From positions 23,982 to 87,981 of the forward strand of contig JAUYIW010000067.1 in the NCBI GenBank assembly GCA_030688135.1: a stretch of DNA of 64,000 bases. Reading direction: 5' to 3'. This DNA comes from Candidatus Uhrbacteria bacterium (GTDB taxonomy: Bacteria; Patescibacteriota; Patescibacteriia; UBA9934). Made by a program: the position numbers and the translations under genes. The notes beneath the pieces were generated by a model that ran no database searches, was not told the DNA's origin, and was given only the letters and a program-made list of their open reading frames with translations. Shown here piece by piece: positions 4,448 to 38,230 of this stretch; positions within the stretch are counted from its first letter, which is position 1, and the number at the start of each line of letters is the position of its first letter.

Positions 4448-5131
4448 TTAGAAATTATAATCAGGAGAAGTGAATGTGCTTATACGTTCAAATGGAAGTC
4501 CACGAATCCAAACTTTTCCAACAATACTTTCTTCATCGACTGGTCCAAATTTTCGTGAATCAAAACTTGAATCTCTGTTGTCGCCTAACAAGTAATACTC
4601 GTCTGCACCTAGAATCACACGCTCATGCCCTTCTGTATAATCTTCTATGTAGGATTCGCTTAATGATGTTCCATTTGGGTACTCACTGTTAAAAACAGTA
4701 ATAACACCGTCTAAAATTTCTACTGTTTCTCCGGGTAAACCTATTATTCTCTTAATGTAAAATTGACTTTCGTTGCCGGGTGGCCTAAAAACAACAATCT
4801 CGCCACGCTGAGCATCTTTAAATCTATAAGTTACTTCGTCAATAATTAAGTAATCATTTTCGTAATAATTCGGCTCCATTGAAGCCCCACGAACAATAAA
4901 TGGCTTAATAAGGAAGTATCGAACTGGAACTATTATCGCAGCCGCAACTATAACAACTTGCAAGACTTCAACAATAAACAGGACAACCGCGCCAAGAGTA
5001 GCCCCGAAGACTCGGTATGCAAAAGGTTCCTTGATATCTTGTCGTCGTTTGAAAAGCATAGTTTGTAATAGGGGCGGCCCATTGTGACCGCCCGCTTGCT
5101 TAAATTCCTCCGAATACACGCACAATATCAC
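4448..5131 (-). CDS. lepB: signal peptidase I (S26 family)
   Basis: N-terminal TM segment. The catalytic Ser box (VRGASMEPN) and the GDNRDSSFDSR box are both present. Confidence 0.85.
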   Translation of the reverse strand: MILCVYSEEFKQAGGHNGPPLLQTMLFKRRQDIKEPFAYRVFGATLGAVVLFIVEVLQVVIVAAAIIVPVRYFLIKPFIVRGASMEPNYYENDYLIIDEVTYRFKDAQRGEIVVFRPPGNESQFYIKRIIGLPGETVEILDGVITVFNSEYPNGTSLSESYIEDYTEGHERVILGADEYYLLGDNRDSSFDSRKFGPVDEESIVGKVWIRGLPFERISTFTSPDYNF

Positions 5132-5249
5132 AGTTTTTTGCTCTTTGCAAGGGAGTGAGCTTGATCCCGCATTCTATACTCAATGCACCACTCATCGGGA
5201 AAAACGCTCAATCGGCACAATCTCAGTCCAATACAATCCAAACACACAG

Positions 5250-6775: not shown

Positions 6776-6925
6776 GATCCTCCGCTCACCGAGAGATCCT
6801 TCATCGGCTCTATTTTTTTAGGATGTCCTGCTCCCTCAGGATGTCCTACTCCGCCGGCCACCTCAGCGTCAGAATAACCCCTTCGCATCCAGAATAACCC
6901 CTCCGCCAATCGTATAACCCCATTG
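6776..6925. repeat. dispersed repeat, family E, copy 1
   Basis: AGATCCTTCATCGGCTCTA...CCTCAGGATGTCC...CCACCTCAGCGTCAGAATAACCCCTTCG. It is followed by three short ATAACCCC repeats. A second copy lies at 22884-22995. Confidence 0.6.
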
Positions 6926-10832: not shown

Positions 10833-11073
10833 TAATTCACTGCACCATTTCTACGACGGCGTTTGTCGGGAGGAGAAATCTTTTTTTCTTGTCATCCTGA
10901 CCCTAAGCGAGCCGTAGGCGAGTCGAAGGGGAAGAATCTTTCACTGACAGAATGCGGACTTTTAAGAATGTAAGTTTATTGGGTCACCTTGCTATAAATG
11001 CATATTTGACTCAGTCGGCAGAAAAATACTGTACTCCGGCTACCAATTTTAGCTAATCTCAGCCAAGTGGACT

Positions 11074-14930: not shown

Positions 14931-15037
14931 TCATAAGCGAACGCAATAATAAGTAAAATGCTCCCGACCAACGCGGGAGTATTGTTTTTTACATCCTCGA
15001 ATGTGTATTGATTTATATTGTGTCCACGCAACCCTAA

Positions 15038-15054
15038 GGGTTGCGGTTGCGAAT
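15038..15054. repeat. REP-like 17-nt palindrome GCAACCCTAAGGGTTGC (copy 1)
   Basis: Perfect palindrome. One of four copies flanking the RAYT gene. Confidence 0.75.
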
Positions 15055-15150
15055 CACAATGTTATCAACACTTGACTTACTTGCTAAAAAATGCTAAAAA
15101 TAAAGTACTCCCCATTACTGCGGGAGTTTTATTTATGCATTCTCGCATAT

Positions 15151-15167
15151 GCAACCCTAAGGGTTGC
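15151..15167. repeat. REP-like palindrome (copy 2)
   Basis: GCAACCCTAAGGGTTGC, directly abutting the ATG at 15168. Confidence 0.75.
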
Positions 15168-15188
15168 ATGCATACAACATACAAGAAT

Positions 15189-15848
15189 ATGCGAGAGCTT
15201 TCGTTCTACAATTCCGGTTTTTTCCACGTCTATAACCGAGGTGTTGATAAACGAGATACCTTTCTGAAAAAGATCGACTGGTTACGTTTTCTACAAATGA
15301 TGGTGTCCGTTAATGACTCAGGAAATAAACGAAAGCGATTTCCTTTGAGAGACAAAACGAACATAGTGCAGAGTGACGAACCTTACGTGCAAATACACTG
15401 CTATACGCTTATGCCAAATCATTTTCATATCTTGTTGGAGCAGCTTGTTGAAGATGGAATTTCAAAATTTATGGGTAGATTATCTAATGGCTATACAAAG
15501 TATTTCAATAAACGTAATAAACGCTCTGGTAGTCTATTCGAAAGTACATTTAAGGCAAGAGAAATCTGTGGTACTGCTGACCTTATTAATATATCCAGAT
15601 ATATTCATCTAAACCCACTTAGCGTGATTAGACCGAAATGGAAAATACAAGGAATCGTCAACTGGCACGATACATTGAATTTTTTAGAACAGTATCCATG
15701 GTCTAGCTACCAGTCATACATGGACATAAATAAGCAACCGTTTGTCGAATCAGATAGAATTATGAGCTGCTTTTCAGGTGCACAAGACTATAAGCAGTTT
15801 ATGCAAGAGTGGACCCCCACAGACCCCAGAGACTTTGTGCAACCCTAA
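15189..15848 (+). CDS. REP-associated tyrosine transposase (RAYT; IS200/IS605-like Y1 HUH transposase)
   Basis: The HUH motif is present (IHCYTLMPNHFHILLEQ). The N-terminal FHVYNRG block and a downstream Tyr region (YIHLNPL) are also present. The gene is flanked by four REP-like palindromes. The start could be at 15168; the annotated 15018 start would run through two palindromes. Confidence 0.7.
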   Translation: MRELSFYNSGFFHVYNRGVDKRDTFLKKIDWLRFLQMMVSVNDSGNKRKRFPLRDKTNIVQSDEPYVQIHCYTLMPNHFHILLEQLVEDGISKFMGRLSNGYTKYFNKRNKRSGSLFESTFKAREICGTADLINISRYIHLNPLSVIRPKWKIQGIVNWHDTLNFLEQYPWSSYQSYMDINKQPFVESDRIMSCFSGAQDYKQFMQEWTPTDPRDFVQP

Positions 15849-15855
15849 GGGTTGC
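15839..15855. repeat. REP-like palindrome (copy 3; overlaps the RAYT stop)
   Basis: GCAACCCTAAGGGTTGC. Confidence 0.75.
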
Positions 15856-15884
15856 ACAACAGAAAACCAATCTTTACTGGTTAG

Positions 15885-15901
15885 TCATAGTGCGTGCAAC
15901 C
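15885..15901. repeat. REP-like palindrome (copy 4; centre base flipped, i.e. opposite orientation)
   Basis: GCAACCCTTAGGGTTGC. Confidence 0.7.
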
Positions 15902-16127
15902 CTTAGGGTTGCACATGAATGTTGCACTTGCTTAACGATGAGTATATATTTGACAACTTGCACCTATATACTGCATTATGCCCCGTAGAGAAACTTCGAA
16001 GTTCTTCTACGGGGTATGTGGGCATTGTCTCAGAAGTCTGAAAGTCTAAAGTCTGAAAGTCCCCAGTCCCCCGACCACTCCTGTTCCATCGTCAACGATC
16101 AATAGTCAATAGTTTCGCAATCCGCTT

Positions 16128-18450: not shown

Positions 18451-18551
18451 TTACCCGGTGGTTTATAATTTGGAGTTAATAGACATTTAAAGTTGGTGAA
18501 TATCCCGTTTCTCTTCTAACTTTAGCGATAATCTGGAATACTTACGGTCGT

Positions 18552-19550
18552 ATGATCATAAGTGGACCAAAAAAGAGATGCTCGATGTGCTCTAAAACCA
18601 TGCAGCGATGGGGTCGACATCCGTCTGGTAAACAACGCTGGAGGTGTAAGAATTGTGAGAGTTCAAGTATCCGTAGTCGCAAAGACAACCGCCACAAAAA
18701 GCGGTTGTCTTTGTTTGTGCGCTGGCTCACCAGTAAGGCGGCGTTGGATGACTTGGTAACACAAGAAGGCATCACGTTGAGAACCATGACGAGATGGTTT
18801 ACTCCATTTTGGGATCACCCACCACAACCAGACATTCAGATAGGTGTGAGGGTTCTGGTTCTCGACGGAACGTCTGTGATGAAACGAGTGTGTATGCTCC
18901 TCATTGGAGGTGATGCAGACAACGGTCGACCTGTTTCATGGATGGATTGTCCTCGAGAGTGTTACGACTCCTGGGTCGTGTTCTTGAGAGATCTTTCTTG
19001 GAGAGGCATGATCCCTGAAGTGGTCGTCTGTGACGCACAGCGTGGCCTTTTAAAGGCTATTCGTGAAATATGGCCTCAAGTGAAGGTTCAGAGATGTCTG
19101 ATCCATATCGTGAGACAAGCCTGTACTTGGTTGACTAGAAACCCTAAGACCAAAGCTGGTCGAGAGCTTCTTGCCCTGGTTAAAGAACTGCCTCGTCTCC
19201 AGACCAAGCGACAGAAACGTCGGTGGGTCAGGAATTTTTGGAGATGGTATAGACGACACGAGGCGTTTCTCAAAGAACGTAGCTACAGCCCTTCCGGAAA
19301 GTGGTGGTATACCCACCGACGGTTACGAGGCACTCGCTCACTTCTCAAAAACGCCCTGCCTGACTTGTTTCGGTTTGTGACAGACCCATCCATACCAAAA
19401 ACCTCCAACCATGTGGAAGGAGGTTTAAATGCTCGACTTAAGGAACTATTCCGCTGTCATCGAGGCTTTTCACTTCAAAGGAAACTTATTCTTGCTGCCT
19501 GGTATCTAGCATTGAGACAGGGTCAAAAACCAACTTTAAATGTCTATTAG
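18552..19550 (+). CDS. transposase, IS1595-like (N-terminal Zn-ribbon plus DDE domain)
   Basis: N-terminal CxxC...CxxC zinc finger (CSMCSKT...RCKNCES). Size is 332 aa. The C-terminal motif TSNHVEGGLNARLKELFR resembles the N-x-x-E...K signature of IS1595/ISXO2-type DDE transposases. Confidence 0.6.
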   Translation: MIISGPKKRCSMCSKTMQRWGRHPSGKQRWRCKNCESSSIRSRKDNRHKKRLSLFVRWLTSKAALDDLVTQEGITLRTMTRWFTPFWDHPPQPDIQIGVRVLVLDGTSVMKRVCMLLIGGDADNGRPVSWMDCPRECYDSWVVFLRDLSWRGMIPEVVVCDAQRGLLKAIREIWPQVKVQRCLIHIVRQACTWLTRNPKTKAGRELLALVKELPRLQTKRQKRRWVRNFWRWYRRHEAFLKERSYSPSGKWWYTHRRLRGTRSLLKNALPDLFRFVTDPSIPKTSNHVEGGLNARLKELFRCHRGFSLQRKLILAAWYLALRQGQKPTLNVY

Positions 19551-19610
19551 CTCATAATTTGTAATAGTTAAGCTAATCGTTAACCGAAGACTCGCCGCCT
19601 TTCCGAGCAA

Positions 19611-21830: not shown

Positions 21831-22090
21831 AAGAACATTCAAAATGTTAAAGTCGATCAGATTAATTTTGACGATTAAAATAGAATCACCAGACCCGCCT
21901 TGTCATTACGAAGAGGCCGTTTTTCGTGACGAAGTAATCTATCTTTTCTGCCATCCTGAGGAGCTCGTAATGGATCATACGCAATTTGGGTGGAGAATGC
22001 ATAGAGGCCAAAGGTTAGCTCAACCGGTAAAAACAGCGAATCTCTTGCTTTCTACCATCTCGAACCCGACTTAACTTTCTGCTGTCGGGC

Positions 22091-22200
22091 GAGAGATCTT
22101 TCGAACCCCACCATCTCGAGGAGCTTGCAATCCACGACGAGAGATCTTTCGAACCCCACCATCTCGAGGAGCTTGCAATCCACGACGAGAGATCTTTCGC
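22091..22200. repeat. 48-bp tandem repeat, about 2.3 copies
   Basis: The unit GAGAGATCTTTCGAACCCCACCATCTCGAGGAGCTTGCAATCCACGAC is repeated head-to-tail. Confidence 0.8.
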
Positions 22201-22359
22201 GGTTCGTTGAGATCTCCGAAAGATTTCTCCTCGCGACCTACAGACTCGTCGAAATGGTAACTTTCCACTTATTAAATAGATCAAACAAATCCTAACCTGG
22301 CAGATTGGACGAGTCCTCCACCCAAATTGCGTATGACCCCTAGTAATCTGCGACGAATG

Positions 22360-22780
22360 GATCTCTCAGTCGCTTTGCTCCTTCGAGATGGTAAAGTGCG
22401 AAAAAATTGCTTTGTCGTAAACCGCGAGCTCCTAGTAATGCGTATTTTGTCTTTGCGAGGAATCTACTTATCGTGACGAAGCAAACTCTTCGGTTAGAGT
22501 GCAGAAAGATTGCTTCGGACCGAACTGCATAGTCCTCGCAATGACGAAAAAGATCTCTCAGTCGCTTCGCTCCTTCGAGATGGTAAAGTGCGAAAAAATT
22601 GCTTTGTCGTAAACCGCGAGCTCCTAGTAATGCGTATTTTGTCTTTGCGAGGAACCTGCTTATCGTGACGAAGCAAACTCTTTGGTTAGAGTTCAGAAAG
22701 ATTGCTTCGGACCGAACTGCATAGTCCTCGCAATGACGAAAAAGATCTCTCAGTCACTTTGCTCCTTCGAGATGGTGAGA
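22360..22780. repeat. 192-bp tandem repeat, about 2.2 copies
   Basis: Unit starts at 22360, 22552 and 22744 are near-identical (GATCTCTCAGTCGCTTTGCTCCTTCGAGATGGTAAAGTGCG...). They share the core GATCTCTCAGTCG..CTCCTTCGAGATGG with the MITE-like family C. Confidence 0.8.
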
Positions 22781-22883
22781 GAGAGTCGAGGGCATTCAAC
22801 TCGGTCGGGATAACAATTTAAAAACCGATCACTCGATCGGTATATTTTTGTAATATTTAGACTCTCAACTTCATTTAACAAAC

Positions 22884-22995
22884 CTCTTCAGCATCCAGAT
22901 AGATCCTTCGTCGGCTCTACCTCCTCAGGATGTCCGGCAATGCCCTCCACCTCAGCGTCGGAATAACCCCTTCGTACATCGCATAACCTCTGTGT
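22884..22995. repeat. dispersed repeat, family E, copy 2
   Basis: AGATCCTTCGTCGGCTCTACCTCCTCAGGATGTCC...CCACCTCAGCGTCGGAATAACCCCTTCG matches 6776-6925. Confidence 0.6.
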
Positions 22996-23036
22996 TACCT
23001 GCTTAACGATTCCTACTTACCCTAAACTACCCTCTC

Positions 23037-24787: not shown

Positions 24788-24883
24788 AATCTTGTACTAG
24801 TATAGCACGAGAAATCTTAAATTTAAAATCATAAATCCTAAATAAATATGAGTGCCGTCTCTGACTTATTCCTTTTATTCCCC

Positions 24884-25010
24884 TGAATTACGAAACTCGA
24901 TGAGATTTGCGTGAACGGGCTGTCGATCCCGGTGAACCCTACTAAAACGTAGGGAGAACAGGGGCGACGGGCGCCCATGAACGCAAAGATCGCGAGTTTC
25001 GTAATTCAAG
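24884..25010. repeat. GC-rich ~130-bp structured element with terminal inverted repeats, family A copy 1
   Basis: CTGAATTACGAAACTCG...GCGTGAACGGGCTGTCGATCCCGGTGAACCCTACTAAAACGTAGGGAGAA..GGGGCGACGGGCGCCC.TGAACGCAAAGATCGCGAGTTTCGTAATTCAAG. Confidence 0.7.
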
Positions 25011-27095: not shown

Positions 27096-28928
27096 TTAAC
27101 GAACCGTCACAATTATATCCTCCCCTTCTATAAGACCTGAAATAATTTCCACCTTTCCTTCGTCTGCTTTAAGTCCAATGTCGACTACTACTTCATCATA
27201 ATTATTTCCACGAGGAGTCCGAACATAGCGAACACCATCGCTCTCCAATACTGACCTACGAGGAACAAACAATACGTCTGCAACTTGCTCAGTTGTAATA
27301 GTAACGTCGGCCGACATTCCAGGCTTTAGTTCAAGAGGAGGGTTATCTTCTGCAAAGAAGATTCCAACTTCATAGAACACAACACCTTCAACTTTTGTTT
27401 CAGCTGGATCGATCGTTCCTACAAATCCATCAAATGATATATATTCACCAAAAGCATCGAATGTAATTGTTGCAGGATCATTTAGCGAGACCTTTGCTAT
27501 GTCAGATTCGGAAACGTCGAGCACAACCTGAAATTCATCTTCAATTGTTTGCACTGTAATGACTGACGTCGCCGGAGATGCCTGCTCGCCAATTTCGATT
27601 TCAATATTTGTTACCTTACCGTTAATTGGAGAAACAATCTCTGCCTTTGCCAAACGAGCATACGCTGCATCTAGATCGGCCTGCGACCTTCTGACATCTG
27701 CCTGATAGGCTGCTAAATCAACAGCGCGAGGATCAGCGATAAGATCGCCAAGTGTTGCTTGTGCCTTTGTAAGCGAAGCTTCTGCTTGCTCGAATGCCGC
27801 GAGCGAAGCTGCAACTTGGCTAGCTTCGGAGGCCTCAGCTTTGATTAAATCCTGTTCAGATTTTGCTAAATTGTTGCGTGCGTTATCTTCTGCGACATTG
27901 GTATCGATAATTGCATTTGCATACGATTGACGAGCGAGGAAAAATGAAGCCTCTTCATTCTGAATTTGCGTACGAGCAGAATTGATCGTAGTTTTTAGTG
28001 CCAATAAATCAGTTATTGAAAAATCAGCATCTTCTAAAATTGTCGCATCGAGAGCTTGATGAGTATAAAGAAGTGCAAGCGCCGAATCTTCAAGAGCTGT
28101 TTCAAGAAATTCAGCCGCTGCGTTAACATCAGTATCATCGGAATCTGCGCTTAACACAAAAACCGCATCCTCTGCAATGTCCCGACTAGCGCGAGCAAAG
28201 CCAAAATATCTGTTCGCGTGATATAAAGTAGAAGGATCAGCTGACGCAAGCATATCGAAAAAATCAATATTCAAGAGTCCATTTTCGATTCCTAAAACTT
28301 GATCAGCTTCGGAAAGTCCTGCGCGTATCTCTATCGTTGCCGACTTCATTGCGTTTACATAATCTTCCTTAGTGTCAGATAAATCTTGAATGTTTGAAGC
28401 AAGCACGTTAGCTAAGTCATCTTCTTTAGTATCAAGTGCAATTTCTGCAATTCGCACTGTTGCTGCCTCTGTTGCTTGAATGTGAGTGTAATCTGATTCT
28501 GCGGCAGAGAGCGCAACTTCTGCAATAGTGATGTCTGCCATTTTTACAGCAATAGCTTCTGAACCTGCTCCGGCTAATTCGAGATTTAGATTAGCATGAG
28601 CAATATCTAGCGCCTGCTCTGCCTGCCTAGCCTGAGCTCCGAGTTCATCAGCCTCCAAAACTGCCAAGTAATCTCCTATCGCAACCTCATCGCCGACATC
28701 TACAAAGATCTCTTCTACATTACCGGAAATTTGAAAAGATAGTTCAACTTTATCAAGCGATTCCAATTCTCCAGTTGCCTCAACTGTTTGTATTAGATTT
28801 CCACGAGTAACTTTATCTAGTACAAACTCTTGACCGCTCCCCTGTCTAGTTAGAACAAAAATTGCAATCACAACAATTATAACAATCACGCCAGTAACCG
28901 ATAGCCATAGCTTTTTAGGTAATTTCAT
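27096..28928 (-). CDS. HlyD/MacA-family membrane fusion (periplasmic adaptor) protein with extended coiled-coil
   Basis: N-terminal TM anchor. Biotinyl-lipoyl-like half-barrel (GDEVAIGDYLAVLEADE). Very long Ala/Glu/Gln-rich coiled coil. C-terminal beta-barrel. It is the operon partner of the two ABC genes. Confidence 0.7.
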   Translation of the reverse strand: MKLPKKLWLSVTGVIVIIVVIAIFVLTRQGSGQEFVLDKVTRGNLIQTVEATGELESLDKVELSFQISGNVEEIFVDVGDEVAIGDYLAVLEADELGAQARQAEQALDIAHANLNLELAGAGSEAIAVKMADITIAEVALSAAESDYTHIQATEAATVRIAEIALDTKEDDLANVLASNIQDLSDTKEDYVNAMKSATIEIRAGLSEADQVLGIENGLLNIDFFDMLASADPSTLYHANRYFGFARASRDIAEDAVFVLSADSDDTDVNAAAEFLETALEDSALALLYTHQALDATILEDADFSITDLLALKTTINSARTQIQNEEASFFLARQSYANAIIDTNVAEDNARNNLAKSEQDLIKAEASEASQVAASLAAFEQAEASLTKAQATLGDLIADPRAVDLAAYQADVRRSQADLDAAYARLAKAEIVSPINGKVTNIEIEIGEQASPATSVITVQTIEDEFQVVLDVSESDIAKVSLNDPATITFDAFGEYISFDGFVGTIDPAETKVEGVVFYEVGIFFAEDNPPLELKPGMSADVTITTEQVADVLFVPRRSVLESDGVRYVRTPRGNNYDEVVVDIGLKADEGKVEIISGLIEGEDIIVTVR

Positions 28929-29012
28929 AACGCAGGCACAGTATCACTAATTTGCTATATTGAAAAGAGTATATAGGTACCATAATTAGACCTTGGACAC
29001 TCTTCGAATACA

Positions 29013-29062
29013 AAAAAACGTCTCAAAAAGAGATGTTTTTTTTGGTTGCGGGGATCGAATTT
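29013..29062 (-). repeat. duplicated terminator hairpin plus truncated tRNA-Met 3' end
   Basis: AAAAAACGTCTCAAAAAGAGATGTTTTTTT followed by TGGTTGCGGGGATCGAATT duplicates 29199-29246 (the terminator plus 3' end of the tRNA-Met). The region between the copies (29060-29190) has no complete cloverleaf. Confidence 0.55.
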
Positions 29063-29198
29063 TCACATCGCTCACCTTAGTTCGCTCTCCATAAGGGCTT
29101 CCGCCCCTCTGGCGGCCAGCTAAGCTGGCCTGTCACCCCCATTAAGTAAGTGGGACATTCCCCCTTACCATCCCCCTGGTTCAAATCCTTCAAAAACA

Positions 29199-29227
29199 AA
29201 AAAACGTCTCTAAAAGAGATGTTTTTT
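29199..29227 (-). terminator. rho-independent terminator downstream of tRNA-Met (minus strand)
   Basis: ACGTCTCTAAAAGAGATGT hairpin flanked by A/T runs. Confidence 0.55.
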
Positions 29228-29304
<77 letters not shown>

Positions 29305-29349
29305 GGACGATAATACTTAAAAGCGACTATATTGTCAAGTTTATGCCTG

Positions 29350-29497
29350 ATATCGAGACTGTTCTAATACTCTTTTTTCCATCTCGAAGGAGTCTTCGAC
29401 TGAGAGATCTTTCGTGCTTCCTAAGGATTTCTCATCGGCCGGTTCAACGGGCCTTTCCGAAATAGTGAGATTTTAAGTATTAGAACTGTCTCGATAT
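29350..29497 (+). repeat. MITE-like element, family C copy a (about 140 bp with terminal inverted repeats)
   Basis: It begins ATATCGAGACTGTTCTAATACT and ends AGTATTAGAACTGTCTCGATAT. The interior shares CCATCTCGAAGGAG..CGACTGAGAGATC with the tandem repeats at 22.1-22.8 kb. Confidence 0.7.
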
Positions 29498-29544
29498 CTA
29501 TTGACTAAAAATCATTTTTTTGGTATAGTTCCCCCACAATTTAA

Positions 29545-29631
29545 GTCGCGGTGGCGGAACTGGCAGACGCGCAGGACTCAAAATCCTGTGGTGGCAACAC
29601 CGTGAGGGTTCGATTCCCTCCCGCGGCACCA
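29545..29631 (+). tRNA. tRNA-Leu (anticodon CAA)
   Basis: 87-nt class II tRNA. Acceptor GTCGCGG/CCGCGGC. Anticodon stem CAGGA/TCCTG with loop CTCAAAA. Long variable arm. T-arm GAGGG-TTCGATT-CCCTC. Encoded CCA. Confidence 0.8.
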
Positions 29632-29827
29632 TAATTACAAACCGAAGTTTCTAAATTAATGATTGAAGCCAGGGCTATGCAGTTTGAGACTAGTTTAAAT
29701 AATGAGCCAGAACGTTCTAAATTGGATGAAGTTTTGATGCGCTGCGAGCACCGCAAAAAGACGTACTAAATGTACGTCGTTGAGGAGCGGAGCAGTAAAT
29801 CAAAAATTCGCCGATTTAGGACGTTAT

Positions 29828-29904
29828 GGCTGGGTAGCTCAGTCGGTTAGAGCGAAGGACTCATAAGCCTTAGGTCGTGGGTTCGATTCCCACCCCAGCC
29901 ACCA
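29828..29904 (+). tRNA. tRNA-Met (anticodon CAT), elongator-type (or tRNA-Ile2 if lysidinylated)
   Basis: 77 nt. Acceptor GGCTGGG/CCCAGCC. D-arm GCTC-AGTCGGTTA-GAGC. Anticodon loop CTCATAA. T-arm GTGGG-TTCGATT-CCCAC. Encoded CCA. One A-G mismatch closes the anticodon stem. Confidence 0.75.
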
Positions 29905-30034
29905 AAATGACCACTTCGAAAGAAGCGGTCATTTTGTTACAAGCAAGCCAACTGCTTGGCTTGCGAAGTAATCAAGCACACAACCTAAAGGAGATGTGGA
30001 GGAAAGTATTTCCCTCACTTTTCCTAAAAAATAA

Positions 30035-30601
30035 CTATAAAACCAGCCGGCTACGACTCTTCCCACTCGCCTCCCATTCCGCCTTGAATCTTACCTTTTC
30101 TTCTATAGGGATTTTGTTGTTGTATAGATTTAGCACAGTAACTCCATCCGGAATATTCTCAATCTTTGGGATTTGGTTTTTGGATAGATTTAGCCTTGTG
30201 ACTCCTTCTATGCGTTTAAAGAATGGTGGTATCAACTCTATTCCTTCGCCATAAAGATCTAGCTCGGCATTAAGCGAAATAATCTCGCCGTATTCGGTGA
30301 ACTCAAAAAGCTCTTCTACCATTTCTTTGTTTAGGCCAATATCTTCAAAATATGCAGTAACCTCTACGCGCGTTAGTTTTTCTTTTATATTTTCCGCTTC
30401 TACAGCGCGTATTGCTTCCATTTCTTCCTCTGTAAACCGATGTTCCGGAATCGGCTCTTCCGCCTTTTTGGCAGTTTTACCGGACAAACGCCTCATTTCC
30501 GCTTCAGGTCCCAAAACACTACCAATAAAAGCAGCATCGTCAGGGTTTAGCTTCCTAGGTTCCTTAAATGGGTTTTCTAATGATTGTGGCATATACACCA
30601 T
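30035..30601 (-). CDS. small leucine-rich-repeat (LRR) protein
   Basis: The C-terminal half contains tandem LxxLxLxxNxI-type repeats (LNLSKNQIPKIENIPDGVTVLNLYNNKIP). 188 aa. The N-terminal part is acidic. Confidence 0.5.
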   Translation of the reverse strand: MVYMPQSLENPFKEPRKLNPDDAAFIGSVLGPEAEMRRLSGKTAKKAEEPIPEHRFTEEEMEAIRAVEAENIKEKLTRVEVTAYFEDIGLNKEMVEELFEFTEYGEIISLNAELDLYGEGIELIPPFFKRIEGVTRLNLSKNQIPKIENIPDGVTVLNLYNNKIPIEEKVRFKAEWEASGKSRSRLVL

Positions 30602-30846
30602 CTTACCTTATTTTAATACTATTTGTCATTACTACTTACATTGCAATCGTAAAGTAAAAATACTTTGTACTATGGCCTAAAAGCAATATGATCATATTAA
30701 ACAAGATAATTGCAATACTACGCAGAATAGTCTATTAAATGCTCCTTATTGGCGATATCACCTATGTGCGTATACCTAGGTTATATTTTAGATCCATTAA
30801 TAAACCACCCTTTAGCCTACCGCGAATTAGTGTGGTTTCCATTGCG

Positions 30847-30985
30847 CGAGACCGTTCTAATACTTAAAATCTCACCATTTCGAGGAGGTCTATTATATCG
30901 GCCGACGAGAAATCTTTAGAAGGCACGAAAGATCTCTCAGTCGAAGACTCTTTCGAGATGGGAAAAAGGAGTATTAGAACGGTCG
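30847..30985 (-). repeat. MITE-like element, family C copy b (inverted relative to copy a)
   Basis: CGAGACCGTTCTAATACT...AGTATTAGAACGGTCG. The interior is approximately the reverse complement of copy a. Confidence 0.7.
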
Positions 30986-31036
30986 GACTAGGGCGCCTTT
31001 GTTTTTCGATACTTTAGTGCTATACTATTATCAATT

Positions 31037-31498
31037 ATGACCATAACAACTCACACAGCAATCGGTGCGGCAATCGGATTCAGTGTTGGAAATCCTTACC
31101 TTGGATTTGGGCTTGGTCTTATCTCTCATCTACTGGTTGATATGATTCCGCATGGAGATAGTTTGATTGCGGAAGAATTTCGTATACATAAAAAAAGGAA
31201 AAGGGCATTCAGACTTGGTACAACAGACGCGCTATTCGCACTCCTTCTTGCACTATTCATATTCAATCTTCCGCACGTTACATCAACAATGACAGTTTCT
31301 CTAGCAATTGCAGGAAGTATTTTTCCCGACCTTATCGTTGGCCTGCATGACGCAACAAAAAGTAAGTATCTGAAAAGAGCGGTAAAAGTTCATTGGTTTT
31401 TTCATGACTTTTTTATCAAGCGCTATCACGACGTAAAGCTAACTAACAGCTTACTATTGCAGGCTGGGCTCGTGGCCATAATCATGAATATACTGTAA
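31037..31498 (+). CDS. membrane protein, possibly YdjM/DUF457-like metal-dependent hydrolase
   Basis: Multiple TM helices. The His-containing motif LLVDMIPHGD is reminiscent of the YdjM family. This is a weak assignment. Confidence 0.35.
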   Translation: MTITTHTAIGAAIGFSVGNPYLGFGLGLISHLLVDMIPHGDSLIAEEFRIHKKRKRAFRLGTTDALFALLLALFIFNLPHVTSTMTVSLAIAGSIFPDLIVGLHDATKSKYLKRAVKVHWFFHDFFIKRYHDVKLTNSLLLQAGLVAIIMNIL

Positions 31499-34736: not shown

Positions 34737-34819
34737 CCAATCGTTACGGCGGGTTCGTTTATCCTGGACTGTAGTACCTACAAAAACTCAATCTGGGCAA
34801 ACGGTGAAGTCTGGATTAC

Positions 34820-34948
34820 CTTGAATTACGAAACTCGCGATCTTTGCGTGAACGGGCTGTCGATCCCCGTGAACCCTACTAAAACGTAGGGAGAATGGGG
34901 GCGACGGGCGCCCGTGAACGCAAAGATCGCGAGTTTCGTAATTCAAAA
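34820..34948. repeat. GC-rich structured element, family A copy 2 (has a perfect 29-bp outer stem)
   Basis: CTTGAATTACGAAACTCGCGATCTTTGCG ... CGCAAAGATCGCGAGTTTCGTAATTCAAG encloses the GTGAACGGGCTGTCGATCCCCGTGAACCCTACTAAAACGTAGGGAGAATGGGGGCGACGGGCGCCCGTGAA core. Confidence 0.7.
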
Positions 34949-37928: not shown

Positions 37929-38074
37929 TGGAGGGATTATTCATTACCTTACAGCCCAGTTTATTATCGATCTGCAGGGTTTATTAAAAATACGACCATT
38001 TATTATTGTACTGCCCTTATATTAATAAACATTCGTCTCCTGCGATAACCCTAGATTCTCATTAATAAACTTAT

Positions 38075-38203
38075 CTTGAATTACGAAACTCGATGAGATT
38101 TGCGTGAACGGGCTGTCGATCCCCGTGAACCCTACTAAAACGTAGGGAGAACGAGGGCGACGGGTGCCCGTGAACGCAAAGATCGCGAGTTTCGTAATTC
38201 AAG
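38075..38203. repeat. GC-rich structured element, family A copy 3
   Basis: CTTGAATTACGAAACTCGATGAGATTTGCGTGAACGGGCTGTCGATCCCCGTGAACCCTACTAAAACGTAGGGAGAACGAGGGCGACGGGTGCCCGTGAACGCAAAGATCGCGAGTTTCGTAATTCAAG. Confidence 0.7.
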
Positions 38204-38230
38204 GAAACTTAAGCTTCTTGTAAATAAACT

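What the first reader, a model, noticed from the sequence alone, without database searches (positions are those of the whole stretch)
29350..30985. Inverted MITE-like pair bracketing tRNA-Leu, tRNA-Met and an LRR-protein gene (composite-transposon-like)
Two ~140-bp elements lie at 29350-29497 and 30847-30985. Each has terminal inverted repeats (ATATCGAGACTGTTCTAATACT...). They are in inverted orientation relative to each other and enclose a 1.35-kb segment. That segment carries tRNA-Leu(CAA), tRNA-Met(CAT) and a small leucine-rich-repeat protein gene.

The element interior shares its core (CCATCTCGAAGGAG..CGACTGAGAGATC) with the 48-bp and 192-bp tandem repeats at 22.1-22.8 kb and with segments at 6776-6925 and 22884-22995. 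Immediately upstream there is a duplicated terminator plus tRNA-Met 3' fragment (29013-29062 versus 29199-29246). That is a footprint of tRNA-targeted integration or rearrangement.
Basis: seen in the sequence. Interest (0 to 1): 0.5.

Follow-up and report, generated by a model that had tools for sequence, protein, structure and literature searches.

The report
Two small foldback repeats, not a transposon
Two copies of a roughly 140-bp hairpin-forming, MITE-like repeat have landed in the promoter spacers of an old tRNA gene cluster in an uncultivated Uhrbacteria (CPR) genome; they do not form a composite transposon, so the finding is largely ordinary.

Summary
E1 (29349-29498) and E2 (30847-30986) are 86% identical and mutually inverted. 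Each has a 15-23 nt terminal inverted repeat and folds far better than shuffled sequence. The duplicated terminator plus tRNA-Met 3' fragment is also real.

The composite-transposon reading is not supported. The window comes from a Candidatus Uhrbacteria MAG. Four related genomes carry the same tRNA-Met/Leu/Met cluster next to the same 153-aa gene. None has E, the LRR-like ORF or the duplication. E1 sits exactly between the two conserved divergent -35 boxes of tRNA-Met and tRNA-Leu: 162 nt apart here, 31-33 nt in relatives. It is therefore an insertion into a resident cluster. No target duplication flanks the pair.

The interior of E is two inverted copies of a 45-50 nt module, M. M also builds the 48-bp and 192-bp tandem arrays at 22.1-22.8 kb, giving 12 copies in the window and none in relatives. 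The "LRR" ORF is an orphan with good coding statistics and only sub-threshold LRR hits.

Best reading: a lineage-specific, non-autonomous foldback (MITE/REPIN/BOX-like) repeat, inserted twice. No cognate transposase was found. Interest is low to moderate.

The parts
29349..29498 (+). Element E1: 150-bp foldback / MITE-like repeat. It has a 23-nt terminal inverted repeat, GATATCGAGACTGTTCTAATACT. The outer palindromic GATATC could be a 6-bp target duplication. Homology with E2 spans 29354-29493.
   Evidence: RNA fold z=-7.0; DNA fold z=-6.2.
30847..30986 (-). Element E2: the second copy, inverted relative to E1, with a 15-nt perfect TIR (GACCGTTCTAATACT). It lies 35 nt upstream of the conserved extended -10 (TGCTATACT) of the 153-aa gene.
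   Evidence: Promoter comparison with L008.
29375..29417 (+). Module M, left half of E1 (CCATCTCGAAGGAG-TCTT-CGACTGAGAGATCTTTCG).
   Evidence: nhmmer E=1.9e-10; alignments.
29419..29472 (-). Module M, right half of E1, inverted. It is the ATTTC/GAAAT variant.
   Evidence: nhmmer E=1.3e-9.
30868..30921 (+). Module M in E2 (ATTTC/GAAAT variant).
   Evidence: nhmmer E=2.5e-11.
30923..30966 (-). Module M in E2 (ATCTC/GAGAT variant).
   Evidence: nhmmer E=4.3e-10.
29228..29304 (-). tRNA-Met(CAT), called 'Met1'. It is initiator-like by its resemblance to E. coli tRNA-fMet; that comparison is from memory and was not tested. It is a resident gene with orthologues in L008, L013 and L015.
29310..29338 (-). 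Promoter of Met1 (TTGACA-17-TATTAT), conserved in L008. It abuts the left side of E1.
29501..29529 (+). Promoter of tRNA-Leu (TTGACT-17-TATAGT with TG), conserved in L008. It starts 2 nt after E1.
29545..29631 (+). tRNA-Leu(CAA), a resident gene, 88-92% identical to the copies in L008, L013, L015 and L017.
29828..29904 (+). tRNA-Met(CAT), called 'Met2', a resident gene, 91-96% identical to the copies in relatives.
30035..30601 (-). Orphan 188-aa ORF, annotated in NCBI as the 185-aa hypothetical protein Q8P30_04035. It has two roughly 20-aa LRR-like repeats at residues 127-166 and codon statistics like real genes of this genome.
   Evidence: 60-nt DNA repeat D2.
29002..29062 (-). Copy A of the direct repeat: a bidirectional terminator hairpin plus the 3' 19 nt of Met1 (AAATTCGATCCCCGCAACC).
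29063..29187 (.). Unique 125-nt G+C-rich (about 53%) segment between the two repeat copies. It matches nothing in the window, the relatives or the phage collection, and it is only modestly structured (z -2 to -2.8).
29188..29247 (-). Copy B of the direct repeat: the terminator plus the 3' end of the intact Met1 gene.
21972..22339 (.). A second TIR-bounded element carrying M. Its 24-nt TIR is GGATCATACGCAATTTGGGTGGAG. It encloses M(+) at 22050-22106, the 48-bp M array at 22090-22199, and M(-) at 22215-22263.
22360..22776 (-). 192-bp tandem array (2.2 copies, 96% matches). Each unit carries one M (22355-22398, 22545-22591, 22737-22780).
10843..10884 (+). Solitary, degenerate M copy just downstream of the pth terminator.
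   Evidence: nhmmer E=0.0058; sequence.

Best explanation
E1 and E2 are two diverged copies (86% identical) of a lineage-specific, non-coding foldback repeat of about 140 bp. Each is a long imperfect palindrome: a 15-23 bp terminal inverted repeat caps two inverted copies of a 45-50 nt module, M. M also occurs as singletons and as tandem arrays elsewhere in the genome.

I read E as a non-autonomous mobile element of the MITE / REPIN / BOX kind. I infer that an enzyme encoded outside the window copied it in trans. It survives where insertion does no harm, namely in the non-transcribed spacer between divergently firing promoters.

E1 entered the 31-33 nt spacer between the -35 boxes of the tRNA-Met and tRNA-Leu promoters. 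E2 lies just upstream of the promoter of the 153-aa gene.

The tRNA genes between them are old residents of the locus, not cargo. The pair is not a composite transposon.

Shown: copy structure, boundaries, foldback potential, modular make-up, absence from relatives, and insertion of E1 into a conserved promoter spacer.
Inferred: mobility in trans, the enzyme responsible, and GATATC as a target duplication.
For: (1) The elements have discrete boundaries and TIRs, and the flanks are unrelated.

(2) Foldback potential is strong, z -4.6 to -7.0 for RNA and DNA parameters alike.

(3) The closest relative, L008 (HlyD 66% and 153-aa protein 67% aa identity), has the same flanking genes and the same three tRNAs in 626 nt against 2108 nt here. 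It has no E, no ORF and no duplication.

(4) L013/14, L015/16 and L017/18 also carry the tRNA cluster next to the 153-aa gene and lack E and M.

(5) The Met1 and Leu promoters are conserved in L008 and L013. Their -35 hexamers are 33 and 31 nt apart there and 162 nt apart here, and 150 of those 162 nt are E1.

(6) The interior of E is two inverted M modules. There are 12 M copies in the window and none in 18 loci from other genomes.

(7) The same genome holds a clear-cut MITE family, F: 3 copies, 92-96% identical, 37-nt TIRs and candidate 6-7 bp target duplications. It also holds an IS1249-type IS. Small TIR elements have therefore been active in this lineage.

(8) Intergenic regions that carry these repeats are greatly expanded compared with L008: 1207 versus 165 nt between relA and parB.
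Against: Only two E copies are known, both in one locus. The rest of the genome could not be reached because the window's proteins are not in the gene-position index.

No transposase gene or IS with matching TIRs lies in the 64 kb.

A target duplication is ambiguous for E1, because GATATC is palindromic and could simply extend the TIR. None is present at E2.

The spacer sequence at the 'empty site' in relatives is not alignable, so the insertion point cannot be fixed to the base.

No homologous element was found in any public collection searched. The hits to the TIR pattern have unrelated interiors and occur at about the number expected by chance.

The differences between E1 and E2 do not show a clear pattern of structure-preserving change.
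Confidence: 0.62

Rival explanations
1. Composite-transposon-like unit. The two inverted elements act as the ends of a 1.64-kb mobile unit that carries tRNA-Leu, tRNA-Met and the LRR-like gene.
For: Two copies of the same TIR element in inverted orientation bracket a 1353-nt segment. The ORF inside is absent from all relatives.
Against: tRNA-Leu and Met2 are single-copy orthologues of genes found at this locus in four relatives, 88-96% identical, with conserved promoters that abut E1.

No direct repeat flanks the unit: the outer flanks are ...TTTATGCCT and GGACTAGGG....

The orientation of Leu-Met2 relative to Met1 and the 153-aa gene equals that in the E-free L013.

The copies are 14% diverged, so they are not a recent paired event.
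Confidence: 0.04
2. REPIN-like element. M is a REP-like hairpin and E is an inverted M doublet. Both are mobilised as single-stranded hairpins by the single-copy RAYT-like Y1 (HUH) transposase encoded at 15018-15848.
For: [quoted passage not shown]

M occurs as singletons, inverted doublets and clusters in intergenic DNA.

The ATCTC/GAGAT boxes of M show one C-G to T-A double change in 4 of 12 copies with no mixed forms (only 3 of 500 shuffles reach it).

A Y1_Tnp / REP_Tyr_transpos-like gene is present and is syntenic with one in L008.
Against: The RAYT-like gene is flanked by four copies of a different palindrome, GCAACCCTWAGGGTTGC, which occurs nowhere else in the window. No M lies next to it.

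Its NCBIfam score is below the family cut-off (42.5 versus 80 bits).

L008 has the Y1 gene but no M.

An isolated M does not fold better than shuffles (z=-0.3).

The single covarying pair may be one inherited event that merely marks a subfamily.
Confidence: 0.12
3. Not mobile. E arose in place by local inverted duplication or recombination of M-containing DNA. It persists as a structural or regulatory DNA element, for example a cruciform-prone insulator or protein-binding site between divergent promoters.
For: Both copies sit between divergently oriented transcription units. There are only two copies, both in one 1.6-kb neighbourhood. There is no clear target duplication and no cognate transposase. 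M behaves as a reusable module inside differently capped palindromes, as at 21972-22339.
Against: The boundaries are discrete and both copies share the same 15-19 nt termini. Neither E nor M is present in any relative, including at the conserved promoters that would need such regulation. One internal hairpin (GGCCGGTTCAACGGGCC in E1) is destroyed in E2, which argues against tight structural constraint.
Confidence: 0.12
4. E1 and E2 are genes for a structured small RNA.
For: Predicted folds are highly stable on both strands.
Against: No Rfam family matches even at E<=10. E1 lies between two -35 boxes that fire away from it, so no promoter reads into it. The fold is equally good on both strands, as expected of a DNA palindrome. 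There is no conservation in relatives.
Confidence: 0.03

Closest known systems
Bacterial MITEs, e.g. Neisseria Correia elements and enterobacterial ERIC/IRU (from my own knowledge)
   Same: They are 100-150 bp, non-coding and intergenic, with terminal inverted repeats and a whole-element imperfect palindrome. They often sit next to promoters and are present or absent between related genomes.
   Different: There is no demonstrated target duplication. Correia elements have TA; here there is only an ambiguous palindromic GATATC at one copy. There is no known parent IS. Only 2 copies have been seen. The interior is built from a module that also forms tandem arrays.
BOX elements of Streptococcus pneumoniae (modular boxA-boxB(n)-boxC; from my own knowledge)
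   Same: The build is modular: end modules that pair with each other surround an internal unit of about 45 nt that can be tandemly repeated. Compare the 48-bp M array inside the TIR-bounded 21972-22339 element.
   Different: There is no sequence similarity. Here the repeated module is itself present in both orientations within the element. The host phylum is different (CPR).
REPIN / RAYT systems (Bertels and Rainey; PMC3116915, PMC3337134)
   Same: E is an inverted doublet of a short hairpin module separated by a spacer, forming a long hairpin. Singlets and clusters also occur. A RAYT-like Y1 gene lies in the same genome in conserved synteny.
   Different: The palindromes that flank the RAYT-like gene are a different sequence from M. 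E also has extra terminal inverted repeats outside the doublet. Copy number is unknown.
MITE-bounded composite units such as integron mobilisation units (from my own knowledge)
   Same: Two copies of one MITE bracket genes.
   Different: Those units are flanked by a target duplication and carry foreign cargo. Here the flanks show no duplication and the tRNA 'cargo' is ancestral to the locus.
tRNA-targeted integrative elements (attL/attR formed by a repeated tRNA 3' end)
   Same: There is a direct repeat of the 3' 19-20 nt of tRNA-Met from the T-loop to the 3' end, with 21 nt of exact identity.
   Different: Only 125 nt lie between the repeats, with no integrase or other gene. The repeat also includes the terminator downstream of the tRNA. 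At best this is a decayed remnant.

Membership tests
MITE (non-autonomous TIR element) | Small (<about 500 bp) and non-coding | tested here: met
   The elements are 140-150 bp. The only ORF overlapping E1 (29268-29465, 65 aa) starts inside the tRNA-Met1 gene on its antisense strand and has no Pfam hit.
MITE (non-autonomous TIR element) | Terminal inverted repeats | tested here: met
   23 nt at 96% in E1 and 15 nt at 100% in E2.
MITE (non-autonomous TIR element) | Target-site duplication flanking each copy | tested here: inconclusive
   E1 is flanked by GATATC on both sides, but the hexamer is palindromic and may belong to the TIR. E2 has no flanking direct repeat.
MITE (non-autonomous TIR element) | Multiple dispersed copies in the genome | tested here: inconclusive
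   There are two copies in 64 kb, 1.35 kb apart.
MITE (non-autonomous TIR element) | Presence/absence relative to orthologous sites in related genomes | tested here: met
   E1 is absent from the conserved Met1/Leu divergent promoter spacer in L008 and L013. Neither E copy is present in any of the four relatives.
MITE (non-autonomous TIR element) | TIRs shared with an autonomous IS that supplies the transposase | tested here: not met
   The only DDE IS in the window (IS1249-type, 18467-19559) has unrelated 31-nt TIRs. Only the window was tested.
Composite transposon | Two copies of the same element bracket the cargo | tested here: met
   E1 and E2 are inverted with 1353 nt between them.
Composite transposon | Target duplication flanking the whole unit | tested here: not met
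   The outer flanks TTTATGCCT and GGACTAGGG share nothing.
Composite transposon | The unit is present or absent as a whole, and its cargo is foreign to the site | tested here: not met
   tRNA-Leu and Met2 are orthologous residents of the locus in L008, L013, L015 and L017 without any E.
REPIN-RAYT | Two REP-like hairpin units in inverted orientation separated by a short spacer | tested here: met
   The M_L and M_R halves occur in both E copies.
REPIN-RAYT | The same REP sequence flanks a single-copy RAYT gene | tested here: not met
   The RAYT-like ORF at 15018-15848 is flanked by GCAACCCTWAGGGTTGC four times, not by M.
REPIN-RAYT | High copy number across the genome | not testable with these tools
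   Only 64 kb of the genome is available.
tRNA-integrated genomic island (att duplication) | Direct repeat of the tRNA 3' end bounding the element | tested here: met
   29002-29062 versus 29188-29247, 92% identical with a 21-nt exact core.
tRNA-integrated genomic island (att duplication) | Integrase and cargo between the repeats | tested here: not met
   Only 125 nt of unique non-coding sequence lie between the repeats.
Leucine-rich-repeat protein (the ORF at 30035-30601) | Significant match to an LRR profile | tested here: not met
   LRR_8, LRR_1 and LRR_4 reach E 0.025-0.04 and 14.6-15 bits, below cut-offs of 20.6-27.

The most novel reading that the evidence does not exclude
M and E may be the visible part of a vertically inherited hairpin-repeat population, a REPIN-like system, in a CPR bacterium. 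The module M would be copied as single-stranded hairpins by the syntenic single-copy RAYT-like Y1 transposase. That process would generate foldback doublets (E), differently capped palindromes (21972-22339) and tandem arrays. As far as the searched literature shows, this would be the first such system described in the streamlined genomes of the Candidate Phyla Radiation. A weaker variant: the foldbacks have been co-opted as cruciform insulators between divergent promoters.
Probability: 0.1. Interest if true: 0.5.

Novelty: new member of a known kind. Interest (0 to 1): 0.25.

Why it matters
The finding matters little on its own. It shows that even a small, streamlined Uhrbacteria genome carries several families of short foldback or MITE-like repeats. 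These repeats inflate particular intergenic regions several-fold compared with a close relative.

It also corrects a tempting over-reading. tRNA genes bracketed by inverted repeats are not necessarily cargo.

Two side results may be of more use to specialists. First, the tRNA-Met/Leu/Met cluster next to a conserved 153-aa membrane-protein gene is rearranged differently in every Uhrbacteria genome examined, so it is a local rearrangement hot spot. Second, one 45-50 nt module is reused in foldbacks and tandem arrays, beside a syntenic RAYT-like gene with its own flanking palindromes.

Tried and rejected
(1) Cross-genome family defined by the TIR core. I scanned for GTTCTAATACT-N90-120-AGTATTAGAAC. 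It gave 3 loci in genome contigs, 4 in metagenome contigs and 0 in viral contigs.
- At first these looked like a conserved closing stem with variable interiors.
- They collapse to three unrelated groups: L001/L002/L007 (Saccharibacteria), L003/L004/L006 (Anaerocolumna-like) and L005.
- Their interiors show no similarity to E.
- By my arithmetic about one match per 596 Gb is expected by chance for 22 fixed bases and 31 gap lengths.
- I treat them as chance matches.

(2) Rfam at gathering and at E<=10 found nothing for E or for the 125-nt segment.

(3) Exact look-ups of three window proteins found no record. The rest of the 93.8-kb source contig and genome could not be fetched.

(4) More distant HlyD homologues (L009-L012) are not syntenic.

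(5) A homologue search for the LRR-like ORF returned only itself. It is unrelated to the 189/191-aa genes that occupy the same position in L013 and L015.

(6) blastn of E and of the 125-nt segment against the phage and plasmid collections found no match. The M pattern gave no match in viral contigs.

(7) Inversion of the tRNA block by recombination between the two inverted tRNA-Met genes was considered and dropped. Both genes are intact, non-hybrid orthologues in each genome.

(8) Recombination between E1 and E2 as the cause of the window-versus-L008 inversion was rejected. That inversion includes Met1, which lies outside the E1-E2 interval, and the window's orientation equals that of the E-free L013.

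(9) oriC or a terminus as an explanation for the 22-kb repeat region was left open. Genes converge there and GC skew turns negative after about 22 kb, but I did not pursue it.
Full report
**What is in the sequence**

The region 28929-31036 is one long intergenic stretch. It lies between a HlyD-type adaptor gene (27096-28928, minus strand) and a 153-aa membrane-protein gene (31037-31498, plus strand). ARAGORN and Rfam agree on three tRNA genes:
- tRNA-Met at 29228-29304 on the minus strand, called Met1 here
- tRNA-Leu(CAA) at 29545-29631 on the plus strand
- tRNA-Met at 29828-29904 on the plus strand, called Met2 here

- E1 is 29349-29498 and E2 is 30847-30986.
- They align in inverted orientation over 138 nt at 86% identity, E=1.5e-38.
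- Each ends in inverted repeats, 23 nt in E1 and 15 nt in E2.
- Homology stops at the element ends; the flanks do not align.
- The TIR 18-mer occurs three times within three mismatches, against 0.03 expected.
- Both copies fold far better than shuffled controls on either strand, with RNA or DNA parameters: z from -4.6 to -7.0. That symmetry is what a DNA palindrome gives.
- No Rfam family matches them even at E<=10.

The duplicated terminator plus tRNA-Met 3' end is also real and slightly longer than stated. It runs 29002-29062 versus 29188-29247, 61 nt at 92% with a 21-nt exact core, and it encloses 125 nt of unique G+C-rich sequence.

**Where the window comes from, and what relatives show**

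The HlyD-like protein and the 153-aa protein are each 100% identical to proteins of a Candidatus Uhrbacteria MAG on a 93.8-kb contig.

The closest relative with sequence available is L008 (GCA_043818555.1). Its HlyD is 66% and its 153-aa protein 67% identical at the amino-acid level. It is collinear with the window from scpA to topA.

In L008 the HlyD / 153-aa intergenic region is 626 nt, against 2108 nt in the window. It holds the same three tRNA genes, 86-96% identical and in the same internal order. It holds no E, no ORF and no duplication.

Three further Uhrbacteria lineages were found through the 153-aa protein (55-58% identity). They also have the tRNA cluster beside that gene, and again lack E, M, the 125-nt piece and the ORF.

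The cluster is arranged differently in each genome. Arrows show the direction of transcription:

| Genome | Arrangement |
|---|---|
| Window | <-Met1, Leu->, Met2->, <-ORF, 153aa-> |
| L013 | <-Met1, Leu->, Met2->, 189aa->, 153aa-> |
| L008 | <-Met2, <-Leu, Met1->, 153aa-> |
| L015 | Met1->, 325aa->, <-Met2, Leu->, 191aa->, 153aa-> |
| L017 | <-Leu, Met2->, 153aa-> |

The tRNA genes are therefore old residents of a locus that rearranges often. The window's tRNA orientation matches that of the E-free L013.

**E1 is an insertion into a conserved promoter spacer**

Consensus promoters for Met1 (TTGACA-17-TATTAT, minus strand, 29338-29310) and for tRNA-Leu (TTGACT-17-TATAGT, 29501-29529) flank E1 directly. 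Both promoters are recognisably conserved in L008 and L013.

The two -35 hexamers are 33 nt apart in L008 and 31 nt apart in L013. They are 162 nt apart in the window, and E1 accounts for 150 of those. E1 is thus an insertion between two promoters that fire away from it. This also makes an RNA role for E1 unlikely.

E2 ends 35 nt upstream of the extended -10 (TGCTATACT) of the 153-aa gene. That promoter is conserved in L008. E2 lies 245 nt upstream of the divergent orphan ORF.

**The composite-transposon reading fails**

- The supposed cargo tRNAs are orthologous residents with conserved promoters.
- No direct repeat flanks the E1...E2 unit.
- The bracketed tRNAs have the same orientation as in L013.
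- The two copies are 14% diverged.

The ORF at 30035-30601 cannot be tested this way because it exists nowhere else. A search of 5.8 billion proteins returned only itself.

The ORF's codon statistics resemble those of genuine genes in the window: +0.26 log-odds per codon in frame and negative in the other frames. It is probably a real orphan gene. It has a 60-nt internal repeat that encodes two LRR-like 20-mers. Pfam LRR models reach only E about 0.03, below their cut-offs. It is unrelated to the 189/191-aa genes at the same position in L013 and L015.

**Anatomy of E: a foldback of a reusable module**

Local alignments show that both halves of E match the 48-bp array unit, one half on each strand.

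Aligning all instances gives a module M with this consensus:

CACCAT[C/T]TCGARGGAG - variable 4-17 nt - CGAC(T)GAGA[G/A]ATCTTTCG

A profile search finds 12 copies in the window:
- two in each E copy
- one at 22050-22106
- two at 22104-22202 (the 48-bp array)
- one at 22215-22263 on the minus strand
- three in the 192-bp array
- a degenerate one at 10843-10884

No copy occurs in any of the 18 loci from other genomes.

E is therefore TIR + M(+) + short loop + M(-) + TIR.

A second element at 21972-22339 has the same plan with different 24-nt TIRs and an expanded M(+) array.

The ATCTC and GAGAT boxes of M show one concerted C-G to T-A change in 4 of 12 copies, with no mixed forms. Only 3 of 500 shuffles reach that score. 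It is a single pair and may be one inherited event that marks a subfamily. An isolated M does not fold better than shuffles.

The claimed link to 6776-6925 and 22884-22995 is not supported. Those two segments resemble each other (52 nt, 85%) but not E (p 0.02-0.16).

**Who moves it**

The enzyme is unknown. The window holds an IS1249/IS256-type IS at 18467-19559. Its 31-nt TIRs are unrelated to those of E.

The window also holds a RAYT-like Y1 transposase ORF at 15018-15848. Pfam Y1_Tnp gives E=1.3e-7. The best NCBIfam hit is REP-associated tyrosine transposase at 42.5 bits, below the cut-off of 80. Four copies of the palindrome GCAACCCTWAGGGTTGC flank it, and that palindrome occurs nowhere else in the window. 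The gene is syntenic with a Y1 gene in L008, which has its own AACCCT..AGGGTT palindromes.

E's inverted-doublet plan resembles a REPIN (PMC3337134). However, the palindromes that flank the RAYT-like gene are not M, so I give that reading about 0.12.

The same genome has a textbook MITE family, F, at 24877-25010, 34816-34946 and 38071-38204. These copies are 92-96% identical with 37-nt TIRs, a DNA fold z of -13.6, and candidate 6-7 bp target duplications that I read from the flanks. This shows that small TIR elements have been mobile in this lineage.

For E1, the palindromic GATATC on both sides could be a 6-bp target duplication or part of the TIR. E2 has none.

**The tRNA-Met 3' duplication**

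On the minus strand the order is: intact Met1, terminator, 125 nt of unique sequence, a second copy of the last 19 nt of Met1, then a second terminator and the hlyD promoter.

A repeated tRNA 3' end starting in the T-loop is the classic scar of a tRNA-targeted integrase. That statement rests on established knowledge. Here nothing but 125 non-coding nucleotides lies between the repeats. They match nothing in the window, the relatives or the phage collection, and they fold only modestly (z -2 to -2.8).

The most that can be said is 'possible decayed remnant of an integration, or a local duplication'. It is specific to this lineage, and it is independent of E.

**Searches that led nowhere**

A scan of the two large collections for the 11-nt TIR core separated by 90-120 nt returned seven loci. 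They fall into three unrelated groups whose interiors are unrelated to E. By my arithmetic about one match per 596 Gb is expected by chance. I count them as chance hits, and those scans are spent.

Phage, plasmid and viral-contig searches were empty. Literature searches found no description of MITEs or REPINs in CPR bacteria in the held library.

**Verdict**

E1 and E2 are two old copies of a lineage-specific, non-autonomous foldback repeat. It resembles MITE, REPIN and BOX elements and is a new member of that known kind. The copies inserted into promoter spacers of a resident, rearrangement-prone tRNA cluster. They are not the ends of a composite transposon.

The mechanism of spread and the enzyme are inferred, not shown. 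Interest is low to moderate at 0.25. The most novel reading still open is a REPIN-like hairpin-repeat system in a CPR genome, with probability about 0.1.

Noticed in passing
window 15018-15848 (+), with palindromes at 15028-15044, 15151-15167, 15839-15855 and 15896-15912; L008 about 15540-16034: A RAYT-like Y1 (IS200-type, HUH) transposase ORF is flanked by four copies of the palindrome GCAACCCTWAGGGTTGC, which occur nowhere else in the window. A Y1 gene sits at the same place, upstream of topA, in the relative L008 and has its own AACCCT..AGGGTT palindromes. This suggests a vertically inherited REP/RAYT-like pair in a CPR lineage.
   Followed up: partly
window 24877-25010, 34816-34946, 38071-38204: A separate MITE family, 'F', has three copies of about 131 bp that are 92-96% identical. 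They have 37-nt TIRs (TTGAATTACGAAACTCGCGATCTTTGCGTGAACGGGC), a very stable foldback (DNA z=-13.6) and candidate 6-7 bp target duplications (GGATTA; AAACTTA). The family is absent from all related loci.
   Followed up: partly
window 18467-19559: An IS1249/IS256-type insertion sequence (332-aa transposase at 18552-19550) with 31-nt TIRs lies between topA and the 190-aa gene. It is absent at this site in L008.
   Followed up: partly
window 21831-23036: The intergenic region between the convergent relA/spoT-like and parB genes is 1207 nt here, against 165 nt in L008. It is filled with a TIR-bounded element (21972-22339) and the 48-bp and 192-bp arrays, all carrying module M. Gene orientation converges here and GC skew turns negative after about 22 kb. 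I did not resolve whether this marks a replication terminus or similar site.
   Followed up: partly
window 6776-6925 and 22884-22995: A C-rich repeat (..CCTCAGGATGTCC..CCACCTCAGCGTCRGAATAACCCCTTCG..) is shared by these two intergenic segments: 52 nt at 85%, E about 1e-9. It is unrelated to E, and its nature is unknown.
   Followed up: no
L008 3633-4095; L013 4781-5266; L015 3483-5301; L017 854-1119; window 29228-29904: The tRNA-Met/Leu/Met cluster beside the conserved 153-aa gene has a different order or orientation in each of the five Uhrbacteria genomes compared. It is a recurrent local rearrangement hot spot, and no repeats at the junctions in the relatives explain it.
   Followed up: partly
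window 29760-29778 and L013 about 5122-5142: A small hairpin (GACGTAC-TAAAT-GTACGTC) in the tRNA-Leu / tRNA-Met2 spacer is conserved between the window and L013, although the rest of the spacer has diverged. It may be a processing or terminator signal.
   Followed up: no
L002 108-231 and L007 3249-3370 (Saccharibacteria): These are orthologous 120-nt palindromic elements upstream of homologous genes, with apparently compensatory differences in an inner stem (TTGAGCC/GGTTCAA versus TTGATC/GATCAA). They are unrelated to E apart from an 11-nt end match that is probably chance. L002 lies beside a serine-recombinase fragment and a tRNA-Lys, and L007 lies beside rve-type (IS481/IS3-like, judged by eye, not scanned) transposase ORFs.
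   Followed up: no
L008 6064-6462: L008 has a 23S_rRNA_IVP-family gene between hlyD and the ABC ATPase gene. The window lacks it.
   Followed up: no
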